Below are positions 14,772-16,881 of a stretch of DNA of 25,440 nucleotides, one piece after another (the first letter of the stretch is position 1; the number at the start of each line of letters is the position of its first letter). Under the pieces are notes generated by a model. The model saw nothing but the letters and a program-made list of their open reading frames with translations, had not been told where the DNA came from and ran no database searches. This stretch comes from Treponema sp. (GTDB lineage: Bacteria > Spirochaetota > Spirochaetia > Treponematales > UBA12059), in the NCBI GenBank assembly GCA_012517645.1, contig JAAYUR010000104.1, positions 1-25,440 on the forward strand, written 5' to 3'. The position numbers and the translations under genes are program-made.

Positions 14772-14813
14772 ATGAAACCATTTAAGGTAGTCGCGCCCTA
14801 CGGTCCGGCCGGA
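14772..14813 (+). repeat. Synonymously diverged duplicate of uvrB codons 1-14; opens a 43-aa ORF 14772-14903
   Basis: ATGAAACCATTTAAGGTAGTCGCGCCCTACGGTCCGGCCGGA versus uvrB 14890-14931 ATGAAGCCGTTTAAGGTAGTCGCACCCTACGGCCCCGCGGGC: 35/42 nt identical and the same peptide, MKPFKVVAPYGPAG. Confidence 0.9.
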
Positions 14814-14889
14814 GTATCGCACGCCGCGGAAGCGGCGCCGTACAATCCGATTCCCCGCGATCCGGCCGCGGGGCCGCGCGAGGGATTCC

Positions 14890-16881
14890 ATGAAGCCGTT
14901 TAAGGTAGTCGCACCCTACGGCCCCGCGGGCGATCAGGCCCAGGCCATCGAGGCCCTGGCCAAGGGAGTCCGGGCCGGACAGCGGTACCAGACCCTGAAG
15001 GGGGTGACGGGCTCCGGGAAGACCTTCACCATGGCCAAGGTCATCGAAGCAGTCCAGCTTCCGACCCTGGTAATCTCCCACAACAAGACCCTCTCCGCCC
15101 AGCTCTACCGGGAGTTCAAGGATTTCTTTCCGGAGAACGCGGTGGAGTACTTCGTCTCCTACTACGATTACTATCAACCCGAGGCCTATGTCCCCACCCG
15201 GGATCTCTACATCGAGAAGGACGCGGACATCAACAAGGAGATCGACCGGCTCCGCCTGGCCGCAACCGCCGCACTCATGGAGAGGCGGGACGTGATCATC
15301 GTGGCCACGGTCTCCTGCATCTACGGCCTGGGCAGCCCGGACCTCTACCGGGCGATGCGGGTATACATCGACCGCGGTTCGGAGATCGACCTGGACGACG
15401 TGAAGCGCCGCCTGGTGTCCCTCCAGTACGAGCGCAACGACGCTGTCATGGAACGGGGACGGTTCCGTATCCGGGGGGATACTCTGGAGATCCACCCGGC
15501 CTACGCGAACGAGGCCTACCGGATCGAGCTGGACTTCGACCGGGTGGCCCGTATCCGGAAGTACGACCCCGTCTCCGGGGCGATCGTGGCGGACGATCTA
15601 GAGGAGGCCGTCGTCTATCCGGCCAAGCATTTCGTCATGCCCGAGGACCAGATCCACCGGGCCGTGGACCTGTTGCGCGCCGAGCTGGAGGAGCAGTACG
15701 CCCGCTTCATGAACGAAAACAAGCTCCTCGAGGCCCAGCGGCTCAAGACCCGGACGGAGTACGACATCGAGCTTTTGACGGAGATGGGCTACTGCCCTGG
15801 AATCGAGAACTACTCCGCACCCCTGGCGGGCCGGAAAAAGGGGGAGCGTCCGGGCGTCCTCTTGGACTATTTCCCCAAGGACTTCCTCACCTTCATCGAC
15901 GAGTCCCATGTCTCGGTCCCCCAGATCGGGGCCATGTACGCCGGCGACCGGAGCCGGAAAACCACCCTGGTGGAGTACGGATTCCGCCTTCCCTGCGCCC
16001 TGGACAACCGGCCCCTCAAGTTCGAGGAGTTCGATTCCATCGTGGACCGGGTCATCTACGTCTCCGCCACCCCGGGACCCTTCGAGCTTGCCCGCAGCTC
16101 CACCGTCGCGGAACAGCTCATCCGGCCGACGGGCCTCGTGGATCCGGAGCTTTCCGTACGGCCCAGCGAAGGCCAGATGGAGGACATCTACGCCGAGATC
16201 CGCAAGCGCATCGAGAAGGGGGAGCGGAGCCTCATCCTGACCCTGACCAAACGAATGGCCGAGGAGCTTACCGAGTATCTCTCGGGCCTGTCCCTAAAGG
16301 TCCGGTACATCCACAGCGAGGTGGAGACCATCGAGCGGGTGGAGATTCTAAAGGCCCTGCGTCTGGGAGAGTACGACGTCCTCGTGGGGATCAACCTCCT
16401 TCGGGAGGGCATCGACCTGCCGGAAGTCTCCTTCATCGCGATCCTGGACGCGGACAAGATCGGCTTCTTGCGCAGCGCCACGAGCCTGATCCAGATCATC
16501 GGCCGCGCCGCGCGGAACGCCGCGGGGATGGTGGTCCTGTACGCGGACCGTATCTCCGACGCCATGAGGGTGGCCATCGACGAGACCAACCGCCGCAGGG
16601 CGGCCCAGAGGGCCTACAACGAGGCTCACGGCATCACCCCGGTAACCATCAAGAAGGCGGTCCACGACATCCTCCTGCGCCACCAGGAGGAGAAGGAGCA
16701 GGTCGTGGAGACCGAGATCGGAACCCTCAAGGGGGCGTTCAACCTTCTGGTTCCCGAACAGAAGAAAGCCCTGATCCGGGCCTTGGAGGCCCAGATGCTC
16801 GAACACGCCAAGAATCTGGAGTTCGAGGAGGCGGCGATCATCCGGGACGAGATCGAGCGGATCCGGGGCGGGGAGGCCTAG
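14890..16881 (+). CDS. uvrB: Excinuclease ABC subunit B
   Basis: 663 aa. GVTGSGKT, FVSYYDYYQPEAY, DESHVSVPQIGAMYAGDRSRK, VGINLLREGIDLPEV, QIIGRAARN, C-terminal UVR motif LEFEEAAIIRD. Confidence 0.98.
   Translation: MKPFKVVAPYGPAGDQAQAIEALAKGVRAGQRYQTLKGVTGSGKTFTMAKVIEAVQLPTLVISHNKTLSAQLYREFKDFFPENAVEYFVSYYDYYQPEAYVPTRDLYIEKDADINKEIDRLRLAATAALMERRDVIIVATVSCIYGLGSPDLYRAMRVYIDRGSEIDLDDVKRRLVSLQYERNDAVMERGRFRIRGDTLEIHPAYANEAYRIELDFDRVARIRKYDPVSGAIVADDLEEAVVYPAKHFVMPEDQIHRAVDLLRAELEEQYARFMNENKLLEAQRLKTRTEYDIELLTEMGYCPGIENYSAPLAGRKKGERPGVLLDYFPKDFLTFIDESHVSVPQIGAMYAGDRSRKTTLVEYGFRLPCALDNRPLKFEEFDSIVDRVIYVSATPGPFELARSSTVAEQLIRPTGLVDPELSVRPSEGQMEDIYAEIRKRIEKGERSLILTLTKRMAEELTEYLSGLSLKVRYIHSEVETIERVEILKALRLGEYDVLVGINLLREGIDLPEVSFIAILDADKIGFLRSATSLIQIIGRAARNAAGMVVLYADRISDAMRVAIDETNRRRAAQRAYNEAHGITPVTIKKAVHDILLRHQEEKEQVVETEIGTLKGAFNLLVPEQKKALIRALEAQMLEHAKNLEFEEAAIIRDEIERIRGGEA

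What the first reader, a model, noticed from the sequence alone, without database searches (positions are those of the whole stretch)
14772..14931. uvrB codons 1-14 are duplicated 118 bp upstream with only synonymous differences
Seen: both copies encode MKPFKVVAPYGPAG, and all 7 mismatches in 42 nt are at third positions and silent. If mismatches fell at random across codon positions, this would have probability about (1/3)^7, or 0.0005. Similarity stops abruptly after codon 14. The upstream copy uses AAA, CCA, GGT and GGA where uvrB uses AAG, CCG, GGC and GGC. Known: elements integrating within genes often carry a diverged replacement of the disrupted end. Inference: one copy came from another uvrB allele, so this is the scar or minimal remnant of an element targeting the uvrB 5' end; alternatively the upstream peptide is itself under selection. 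A simple local duplication followed by neutral decay does not explain the pattern.
Basis: partly seen in the sequence, partly recalled or inferred. Interest (0 to 1): 0.75.

Follow-up and report, generated by a model that had tools for sequence, protein, structure and literature searches.

The report
Small repeat element splitting uvrB's start
A 76-base folded, gene-less repeat element sits inside the first codons of the DNA-repair gene uvrB. It brings its own ribosome site and a second copy of codons 1-14, so the gene stays whole, and relatives of the element do the same at the ends of other conserved genes in related spirochaetes, a behaviour I could not find described.

Summary
uvrB codons 1-14 occur twice (14772-14813 and 14890-14931). 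They are 35/42 identical, and all 7 differences are synonymous third positions; shuffled sequence reaches at most 26/42. Assemblies from at least 7 studies hold the exact stretch, so it is not a chimera.

Between the copies lies a 76-nt structured core. It has covarying helices, a conserved loop and an arm complementary to codons 11-14 of the downstream copy, followed by a Shine-Dalgarno site.

The same unit follows Gly14 of uvrB in 14 related Spirochaetota genomes, in one to three tandem copies. One congener is an exact 118-nt single-copy recombinant and another is naive. Related cores sit at the 3' ends of tuf, thiolase, tRNA-Pro and other genes, between 30-160-nt duplications that keep each gene whole.

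Upstream copies resemble the working starts of related species, and the core covaries with the downstream copy. The upstream copy is therefore a displaced older start. It still opens a frame that crosses the core and stops on or near the next start codon, which suggests a translational relay.

How the element moves is unknown. Earlier unchecked notes of this scan describe similar gene-end-duplicating hairpin elements in other phyla.

The parts
14686..14771 (+). Upstream leader made of one arm of a different, genome-wide heptamer-repeat family (CACGGAG x3, then GACAGGAT x2). It ends in the Shine-Dalgarno GGGAGAGG (about 14764-14771) for copy 1.
   Evidence: Other copies lie in own-genome contigs C84, C549 and C507. 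The block 14686-14780 is 100% identical to G003, against roughly 90% identity in the flanks.
14772..14813 (+). Copy 1 of uvrB codons 1-14: the displaced older start, which now begins the upstream ORF.
   Evidence: Its first 23 nt equal G003's working start. Its last 19 nt are closest to the middle copy of G004.
14772..14903 (+). A 43-codon upstream ORF made of copy 1 plus a read-through of the core. It stops at TAA 14901-14903, 11 nt inside uvrB.
   Evidence: The equivalent ORFs in 14 other units stay open, and 11 of them stop at UGA overlapping the next start.
14814..14889 (+). The 76-nt element. P0 5' arm 14816-14820; P1 hairpin 14822-14827 / 14832-14837 (loop GGAA); conserved loop 14838-14856 (CCGUACAAUCCGAUUCCCC); P0 3' arm 14857-14861; flank-complementary arm 14863-14876; spacer with Shine-Dalgarno GAGGGA 14880-14885.
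   Evidence: Covariation on 20 family members from 8 kinds of locus: 84.7% of cells paired against 68% in shuffles (0 of 500 reach it), and 36-47% when partners are slid. Model R2 scores 75.7 bits here. There is no Rfam match.
14863..14876 (+). The arm of the core that pairs with the end of the downstream copy (14919-14932).
   Evidence: 13 of 14 positions are complementary (pair I9). The pairing covaries across genera. It fits the downstream copy better than the upstream one in 9 of the 10 units where the two differ, and equally in the tenth.
14890..14931 (+). Copy 2 of uvrB codons 1-14: the working start, which belongs to the unit (core + Shine-Dalgarno + copy).
   Evidence: This unit type is shared with G001 and G004 at about 92-93% identity, while their upstream copies are of another type.
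14890..16881 (+). uvrB (663 aa).
   Evidence: Pfam UvrB_inter, UvrB, Helicase_C, ResIII and UVR domains.
13403..14665 (+). Upstream neighbour: an HtrA-like serine protease with a PDZ domain.
   Evidence: Pfam Trypsin_2 and PDZ_2. The same htrA-uvrB order is seen in family f4.

Best explanation
The 118-nt interval is one unit of a gene-less, structure-defined repeat element family found in two families (f1, f4) of one Spirochaetota order.

Shown. The element core (about 65-80 nt) has three parts. A closing helix runs on into the host sequence on its 5' side. There is a short GC hairpin. There is a conserved unpaired stretch (CNGUACAAYC..UUUCCY). At uvrB the core lies directly after the Gly14 codon. 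It is followed by a short spacer with a Shine-Dalgarno site and a second copy of codons 1-14, which is the real start of uvrB. The copy upstream is an older start that has been cut off from the gene. The core arm matches the downstream copy, so core plus downstream copy evolve as one unit. Units are gained, multiplied and lost among congeners. G003 differs from this window by exactly one unit, with the crossover in a 14-nt block shared by the two copies. Related cores lie at the ends of tuf, thiolase, tRNA-Pro, tRNA-Leu and a DUF1015 gene. There too they sit between long direct repeats of the gene end, and the cut-off copy again differs mostly synonymously.

Inferred. The two uvrB copies differ only synonymously because both are, or recently were, working uvrB starts of different lineages. 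They are also under different codon pressures: copy 2 must pair with the core, whereas native starts favour weakly structured, low-GC3 codons. Because the unit carries a copy of the gene end, that copy can serve as a homology arm. Ordinary homologous recombination can then insert the unit into a naive allele, expand it or delete it. This resembles the yeast WHO elements, but without an encoded nuclease.

Inferred. The cut-off copy keeps its Shine-Dalgarno site and start codon. It opens a frame that runs through the core and ends on or near the uvrB start, which relays ribosomes to uvrB and melts the core structure.

Unknown. I could not determine how a first insertion creates the long duplication.
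For: Architecture and recurrence: searches found full units at uvrB in 11 of 42 f1 genomes and 3 f4 genomes. Spacer lengths fall in 7 classes.

Structure: one search shows covariation of the long-range helix, and one search shows helices P0+flank and P1 paired in 84.7% of cells against 68.1% in shuffles (0 of 500 reach it).

Unit co-evolution.

Dispersed family: searches gave 19, 13 and 13 matches in G099, G063 and G013. Long direct repeats end within 2 nt of the left junction at about 60% of loci. Gene identities were checked.

Filled versus empty orthologous sites: at uvrB, G003 and G002 are single-copy. At tuf, G013 is filled while G031 and G032 are empty.

Allele pattern: displaced copies differ from working copies at 48 synonymous and 10 non-synonymous codons over 15 copies, where 26% synonymous is expected by chance. 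The upstream type of G001 and G004 equals G002's working start (2-4 differences) and differs from the unit type at 8-12 of 13 codons, against about 8% divergence in the gene body. The excess is confined to the first 90 nt.

Recombination: there is a 99-100% identical tract of about 150 nt around the site between this genome and G003, in a background of about 90%.

Relay. Spacers of 74, 77, 80, 83, 92 and 98 nt are all 2 mod 3, so the stop UGA overlaps the next A/GUG. The 27-nt deletion in G063 keeps the frame. The 76-nt type stops at TAA, +13.

Transcription: an RNA-library contig covers 14742-14891 (weak, depth 2).
Against: No enzyme, circular form or fresh transposition event has been seen.

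The own genome has a single copy of the core, so mobility is inferred from relatives.

Unit divergence among congeners (about 92-93%) equals gene-body divergence. The unit could therefore be old and vertically inherited in this genus. In that case the intact upstream copies of G001 and G004 (4 changes, all synonymous) would point to present selection on copy 1 rather than recent recombination.

The perfect arm-flank complementarity could be maintained by DNA template switching rather than by selection for an RNA fold.

The free energy of the local fold is not unusual (z = -0.61).

At one orthologous locus (G063:C82 against G099:C14) the element is present with and without the flanking duplication. 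The duplication may therefore sometimes be secondary.
Confidence: 0.6

Rival explanations
1. This is a home-grown regulatory leader, not mobile DNA. On this view, an ancient tandem duplication of the uvrB start in the order's ancestor was turned into a structured 5' leader. The two identical strands (the ends of copy 1 and copy 2) compete for the same core arm, like an attenuator or riboswitch platform. Copy 1 is kept because it is part of the switch.
For: The core arm can pair with either copy end. In G011 and G063 only the last 11-15 nt of copy 1, the pairing part, survive. Parts of the core resemble codons 3-5 and 9-13 of the copy; this is direct reading. The frame and stop-start overlap are conserved.
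Against: The same core occurs at unrelated genes, in either orientation, at 3' ends and behind tRNAs. Core subtypes are shared among loci within a genome rather than among uvrB loci of different genomes. Naive and single-copy congeners exist. No ligand-pocket-like conservation or Rfam family was found.
Confidence: 0.15
2. The upstream peptide, MKPFKVVAPYGPAG plus the core-encoded tail, is itself a selected product. It could act, for example, as a nascent-peptide or micro-protein regulator. That would explain why copy 1 stays synonymous.
For: There are 48 synonymous against 10 non-synonymous codon differences. The upstream copies of G001 and G004 differ at 4 sites, all synonymous. The frame is kept open through seven spacer length classes.
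Against: The 14 residues are decayed in G011 and reduced to 5 codons in G063 while the frame is kept. The core-encoded tail is not conserved as protein, because compensatory hairpin changes give radical residue changes. The same synonymous pattern is seen in cut-off 3' ends of thiolase and DUF1015 genes that lie behind a stop codon.
Confidence: 0.1
3. This is the scar or miniature derivative of a large integrative element (phage or island with an integrase) that targets the uvrB 5' end and carries a replacement end, as e14 does at icd or the dusA islands do.
For: A replacement gene end with synonymous differences is the hallmark of such elements (established knowledge). tRNA 3' ends are also among the targets of the core family.
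Against: No larger occupant was found between the copies in any of 14 uvrB loci; the intervals are 74-98 nt per unit. The two repeats are not identical att cores. The pattern scan of about 186,000 species found the core only in these small units. Duplications vary from 30 to 160 nt.
Confidence: 0.05
4. Recoding: ribosomes or RNA processing skip exactly one unit (Gly14 to Gly14), so that copy 1 also serves as the UvrB N-terminus.
For: The unit is bounded by the same Gly codon on both sides, and a hairpin follows the first. This is a superficial likeness to T4 gene 60.
Against: The take-off and landing codons differ (GGA/GGC here, GGT/GGA in G010). No stop codon follows the take-off codon. No joints skipping the unit appear in RNA-library contigs (low depth). 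The unit has its own Shine-Dalgarno site and start.
Confidence: 0.03
5. Assembly chimera of two strains.
For: The genome is a 554-contig MAG with 5% contamination.
Against: The identical stretch is found in contigs of at least 14 runs from at least 7 studies. Spanning contigs have 0-1 differences. The same layout is found in relatives.
Confidence: 0.01

Closest known systems
WHO homing elements at FBA1 in Torulaspora/Lachancea yeasts (Coughlan et al. 2020, PMC7282813; read)
   Same: Each arrival replaces the end of a conserved gene with the donor's version. The old end is pushed outward and accumulates as fragments. The carried fragment acts as the homology arm. The replaced end is far more divergent than the rest of the gene (there 85% against 99%; here about 74% against 92%).
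   Different: WHO elements encode the nuclease that starts homing, are kb-sized, act at a 3' end and work in meiosis. Here the element is 76 nt and gene-less, no nuclease is known, and it is bacterial.
Integrative elements carrying a replacement gene end (e14 at icd, dusA-specific islands; from my own knowledge, not read here)
   Same: The gene end is duplicated with silent differences, and the gene stays intact after integration.
   Different: Those elements carry an integrase and many genes and have defined identical att cores. None of this is present here.
REP/REPIN, MITEs and Rickettsia palindromic elements (REPIN/RAYT: PMC3337134 and PMC3733652, listed but not read; RPE from my own knowledge)
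   Same: All are short, gene-less, hairpin-forming and multi-copy. Some copies are translated in frame inside ORFs; here that is seen in acidic-repeat ORFs of G141, G093, G099 and G063.
   Different: Those families lie mostly between genes with no target duplication or a short fixed one. Here the elements sit inside gene ends with 30-160-nt duplications that rebuild the gene. No link to Y1 transposase genes was found.
tRNA-linked repeats (TLRs) of E. coli (PMC8144298)
   Same: These are sequences behind tRNA/rRNA genes that end in an 18-19-bp copy of the gene's 3' end, in arrays of 1-5. The tRNA-Pro and tRNA-Leu members of this family look alike.
   Different: TLRs are not reported at protein-gene ends and do not share this core.
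Short upstream ORFs that couple translation, e.g. the iraD leader ORF in E. coli (PMC5574718, listed; abstract only)
   Same: An upstream ORF with its own ribosome site ends at or next to the main start codon, so downstream translation depends on it.
   Different: Here the upstream ORF starts with a copy of the main gene's own first 14 codons and reads through a repeat element.

Membership tests
Integrase-borne integrative element (att duplication with replacement gene end) | A recombinase gene and cargo lie between the two repeats | tested here: not met
   The intervals between copies are 74-98 nt per unit in all 14 uvrB loci, with no independent gene within them.
Integrase-borne integrative element (att duplication with replacement gene end) | The gene end is duplicated so that the target gene stays intact | tested here: met
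   The same holds at tuf, thiolase and tRNA loci.
WHO-type homing element | The replaced gene end is much more divergent than the rest of the gene, and the old ends are left as fragments | tested here: met
   There are 16-22 mismatches in the first 90 nt against about 6-8 per later window for pairs with the naive allele. Stacked old ends are seen in G004 and G013.
WHO-type homing element | The element encodes the site-specific nuclease | tested here: not met
   The core is 76 nt with no gene of its own.
MITE / REP-REPIN | Dispersed multi-copy family with a hairpin or inverted-repeat structure | tested here: met
   There are 13-19 matches per genome in G013, G063 and G099, but only 1 in the own genome. 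The helices covary.
MITE / REP-REPIN | Short, fixed-length target duplication, or none | tested here: not met
   The direct repeats are 30-160 nt, variable in length, and end at the junction.
MITE / REP-REPIN | A cognate transposase (RAYT/Y1 or IS) is present in the same genomes and next to copies | tested here: inconclusive
   Y1_Tnp genes are present in G001, G013, G063 and G099 but not G000. No cores were found within 1.2 kb of 8 such genes.
Retroelement-mobilised (SINE-like, group II, DGR) | A reverse transcriptase is present in genomes with many copies | tested here: not met
   PF00078 is absent from G001, G013 and G063, which carry 3-13 copies.
Curated RNA families (riboswitches, ribozymes, leaders) | A match to an Rfam covariance model | tested here: not met
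   No match at E <= 1 anywhere in 14700-14950.
Translationally coupling upstream ORF | Own Shine-Dalgarno site and start codon, an open frame, and a stop overlapping or next to the main start | tested here: met
Translationally coupling upstream ORF | Downstream translation depends on upstream translation | not testable with these tools
   This needs reporter fusions or ribosome profiling.
Programmed translational bypass (T4 gene 60 type) | Matched take-off and landing codons, with a stop codon after take-off | tested here: not met
   The codons are GGA and GGC here, GUA follows the take-off codon, and other genomes are also mismatched.

The most novel reading that the evidence does not exclude
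These cores are a new class of prokaryotic mobile DNA. They are tiny, gene-less, structure-defined elements that enter the ends of conserved genes and tRNAs. The insertion step itself makes a long, variable duplication running from the insertion point to the end of the gene or transcript. This rebuilds the gene and at the same time gives the element a portable homology arm for spread by recombination. At uvrB the displaced start has been recruited as a ribosome relay.
Probability: 0.3. Interest if true: 0.85.

Novelty: new variant of a known kind. Interest (0 to 1): 0.68.

Why it matters
The finding shows how a conserved repair gene can carry an insertion 42 nt into its coding sequence with its full reading frame preserved. 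The element comes with a replacement start, and the old start is reused as an upstream reading frame.

If the family is mobile in the way the loci suggest, it is a kind of selfish DNA that hides in essential genes (tuf, tRNAs, uvrB) by rebuilding them. It would then have three practical consequences:
- It breaks metagenome assemblies at those genes.
- It creates locally hyper-divergent gene ends that can mislead phylogeny and recombination scans.
- It adds structured leaders or trailers that may change expression.

It also gives a concrete bacterial counterpart to the yeast WHO mode of gene-end replacement.

Tried and rejected
- Rfam scan of 14000-15500 at E <= 1: nothing in the element.
- Promoter and terminator scan of 14500-15000: no sigma-70-like promoter or intrinsic terminator, so the core's "own promoter" is not supported.
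- Pattern scan of all GTDB species genomes for the hairpin plus TAYAA: 27 stretches matched. The 5 from Spirochaetota MAGs are true units at uvrB, and the other 22 look like chance.
- Source of the divergent cut-off copies among paralogues in the same genome (thiolase in G099, DUF1015 in G063): none found.
- Reverse transcriptase as the mobiliser: absent from three multi-copy genomes.
- Y1/RAYT transposases as the mobiliser: present in four of five genomes, but no cores near 8 of their genes. No hairpin repeats flanked the 4 of those loci that were scanned for them.
- Group II-like reading (the core starts GUGCG in two units and pairs with the 5' flank): rejected on size, missing domains and missing RT.
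- attC-like reading (the RYYYAAC-like GTCCAAC in the loop): no matching GTTRRRY partner.
- RNA-guided homing by the flank-complementary arm: rejected because the arm matches the unit's own copy, not the naive allele.
- Extended co-conversion tract downstream of copy 2: not seen beyond about 60-90 nt.
- Phylum-wide sample of 151 genomes with the core model: no matches outside family f1 in that sample. The order-wide scan with the unit model had found f4 as well.
- The energy z-score of the local fold is unremarkable, so support for the structure rests on covariation only.
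Full report
OBSERVATION. The window holds uvrB at 14890-16881 (663 aa, all UvrB Pfam domains), downstream of an HtrA-like protease gene (13403-14665). Its first 42 nt recur at 14772-14813, 118 nt upstream. Both copies encode MKPFKVVAPYGPAG. Of 42 positions, 35 are identical, and all 7 differences are synonymous third-position changes. Shuffles of the upstream kilobase never exceed 26/42, and only 26% of random substitutions in these codons would be silent. 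The upstream copy has its own Shine-Dalgarno site and opens a 43-codon frame (14772-14903). That frame reads through the 76-nt interval and stops at TAA, 11 nt inside uvrB.

NOT AN ARTEFACT. The genome is a 554-contig MAG. Even so, the exact 351-nt stretch is held by contigs of at least 14 DNA runs from at least 7 studies, covering sludge, wastewater, bioreactor and hot-spring samples. A 527-nt contig and a 16.4-kb contig from two of those studies span both copies with 0 and 1 differences. An RNA-library contig covers 14742-14891, so copy 1 and the core are probably co-transcribed; this is weak evidence at depth 2. No joints that skip the unit were seen.

RECURRENCE AT uvrB. I took uvrB loci from 30 relatives, scanned the whole family f1 (42 genomes) with a covariance model of the unit, and scanned 151 genomes of the order. 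The same layout appears in 11 f1 genomes and 3 f4 genomes.

- In every case the interval begins right after the Gly14 codon of an upstream copy. It ends with a purine-rich ribosome site and a new start plus 14 codons.
- G004 has two different units in tandem and G013 has three.
- G002 has a single copy with a different upstream region. G003 has a single copy with the same upstream region as this window.
- A global alignment shows that G003 differs from this window by exactly one 118-nt unit. The junction falls in the 14-nt block shared by the two copies. About 150 nt around it are 99-100% identical in a background of about 90%.

THE INTERVAL IS A STRUCTURED ELEMENT. All intervals share four features:
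- a 5' segment (GUAUCGC and variants);
- a 6-7-bp GC hairpin, P1;
- an unpaired conserved stretch (CNGUACAAYC, 2-4 nt, UUUCCY);
- a segment pairing back to the 5' segment (P0), followed by an arm that is the reverse complement of the last 10-12 nt of the adjacent copy.

On 20 members from different loci, the helices are paired in 84.7% of cells, against 68.1% in column shuffles (0 of 500 reach the observed value) and 36-47% when partners are slid. Fifteen of 21 pairs show double changes. Where upstream and downstream copies differ, the arm fits the downstream copy at least as well in all 10 units and better in 9 of them: 11/12 against 8/12 here and in G001, and 10/12 against 7/12 in G032. Core, spacer and downstream copy therefore evolve as one unit, and the upstream copy is what was there before. 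Rfam has no match.

A DISPERSED FAMILY, NOT A uvrB DEVICE. The unit model also hit tandem arrays elsewhere in f4 genomes. A core-only model finds 19, 13 and 13 copies in G099, G063 and G013, 3 in G001, and only the uvrB copy in this genome. The loci I inspected were:
- the 3' end of tuf (G013, two 177-nt units);
- the 3' end of a thiolase gene (six 129-nt units in G099; also in G063);
- the 3' end of tRNA-Pro (three 135-nt units) and of tRNA-Leu;
- the 3' end of a DUF1015 gene;
- in-frame copies inside acidic repeat ORFs.

At about 60% of loci, a direct repeat of 30-160 nt of the host gene end stops within 2 nt of the core's left junction, and an intact gene is always kept. tuf is filled in G013 and empty in its congeners G031 and G032. 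Core subtypes are shared among loci of one genome. For example, the uvrB and thiolase cores of G099 have the same hairpin, and all g9 cores start GAUUU. This argues for movement within genomes and for independent hits at uvrB. In a phylum-wide sample of 151 genomes the core was not found outside f1, and the order-wide scan had added f4. An exact-pattern scan of about 186,000 species found true hits only in these MAGs, whose titles name Spirochaetota and Treponema.

WHY ONLY SYNONYMOUS DIFFERENCES. Over 15 displaced uvrB copies there are 63 nucleotide differences from the working copy. Of these, 52 are at third positions, giving 48 synonymous against 10 non-synonymous codons.

- The upstream type of G001 and G004 is the working start of naive G002 (2-4 differences). 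It differs from the unit type at 8-12 of 13 codons. The gene body differs by about 8%, and the excess is confined to the first window.
- The first 23 nt of this window's copy 1 equal G003's working start. Its last 19 nt are nearest to the middle copy of G004.
- The same signature occurs at cut-off 3' ends that lie behind stop codons. The thiolase ends are GMGIAMCVKR-stop against GMGIAMCVEQP-stop. The DUF1015 ends are EKRFYVEARKIVR-stop against EKRFYIEARKIIR-stop, with six silent changes. No paralogous source exists in the same genome.

I read this as two alleles that each evolved as a working gene end and were brought together by recombination. Different codon pressure adds to the effect, because the unit's copy must pair with the core. 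The yeast WHO elements give the closest published logic: each arrival replaces the gene end, the old end is pushed outward, and the carried fragment is the homology arm (PMC7282813). Here a unit-bearing fragment can recombine into any naive allele. Its upstream copy serves as the left arm and the gene body as the right arm. This leaves the recipient's own start upstream and the donor's start in service.

One caveat applies. Unit divergence among congeners equals body divergence, so I cannot exclude old vertical inheritance with present constraint on copy 1.

THE UPSTREAM FRAME. In all 15 units the frame opened by the upstream copy stays open through the core. The spacer lengths are 74, 77, 80, 83, 92 and 98 nt, all 2 mod 3, so its UGA overlaps the next A/GUG start. 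If length classes were random and independent, 6 or more of 7 in one residue class has a probability of about 0.007, by my arithmetic; the classes are related by descent, so this is only a rough guide. Only the 76-nt type found here is 1 mod 3, and it stops at a TAA made by a TTT-AAG codon pair at +13.

In G063 the upstream copy has lost 27 nt (9 codons). Even so, the frame still links the htrA stop (GUGA overlap) through the core to the uvrB start. In G011 the first ten codons have decayed and the frame stops 8 nt before the start. So the frame, not the peptide, is what is kept. I infer a ribosome relay that also melts the core-to-codon helix enclosing the ribosome site. This is sequence inference only.

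WHAT REMAINS OPEN. The first insertion step is unknown.
- No reverse transcriptase is present in three multi-copy genomes.
- Y1 transposase genes exist but are not next to cores.
- No recombinase lies in or beside the units.

Two boundary coincidences are worth testing. The uvrB duplication starts exactly at the start codon, and in several single-copy relatives a TATACT box lies 7-8 nt upstream of it, which suggests a leaderless mRNA. The tuf duplication ends at the T-tract of the terminator. Duplications may therefore run from the insertion point to the end of the transcript. The perfect arm-flank complementarity could also be kept by DNA template switching rather than by selection on an RNA fold.

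EARLIER NOTES OF THIS SCAN (unchecked AI notes). They describe small hairpin elements with long target copies at tRNA and protein-gene ends in Patescibacteria, DPANN archaea and Clostridia, and a tRNA-Leu-linked element in probable spirochaetes. The tRNA-Leu locus I saw in G001 has the layout of that last note. One note reports that a "selected tail peptide" reading of a similar synonymous-only copy later failed. That note supplied the WHO reference, which I then read.

VERDICT. It is one member of an apparently undescribed gene-end-duplicating repeat family. The displaced start is probably reused as a translational relay.

Noticed in passing
window 14686-14771; own-genome contigs C84, C549, C507 (L003-L005); also G002 uvrB upstream (L007) and next to tuf in G031/G032 (L134, L135): A second, unrelated repeat family built of heptamer arrays (CACGGAG x3, GACAGGAT x2-3, and their inverse). 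Here one arm abuts copy 1 and supplies its Shine-Dalgarno site. The family consensus GAGAGGATGAAC runs into the ATGAA of copy 1.
   Followed up: partly
L074, L075, L086, L088, L091 (single-copy uvrB loci of genus g6): A TATACT box lies 7-8 nt upstream of the uvrB start with no Shine-Dalgarno site. uvrB therefore looks leaderless in these relatives. This would make the duplicated block at uvrB begin at the transcript's 5' end.
   Followed up: no
L096 (G141:C208), L099 (G093:C12), L108 (G099:C12), L115 (G063:C3): Many copies of the same core are inserted in frame (about 84 nt) inside long acidic EAVEEAE-repeat ORFs. They are read in the same frame as the uvrB upstream ORF (for example QPISLRSP), which recalls the Rickettsia palindromic elements.
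   Followed up: partly
L120 (G013:C2:98046-98400) against L134, L135: At tuf, the duplicated block runs from 14 codons before the stop through the terminator hairpin to the end of its T-tract. The outermost cut-off copy has lost its stop codon.
   Followed up: partly
L093 (G099:C2), L100 (G063:C52): In family f4, the htrA stop overlaps the GTG start of the first uvrB copy (GUGA). htrA, the relay frame and uvrB therefore form a chain of stop-start overlaps.
   Followed up: partly
L047 and L049 (two contigs of the MAG behind G004): One contig ends inside the uvrB unit and a second contig carries the whole array. These repeats break short-read assemblies at uvrB.
   Followed up: no
L107 (G099:C14) against L114 (G063:C82): At this orthologous locus the core is present in both genomes, but the 111-nt flanking duplication is present only in G099. 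In this subtype the 3' arm is a self-contained hairpin instead of a flank complement.
   Followed up: no
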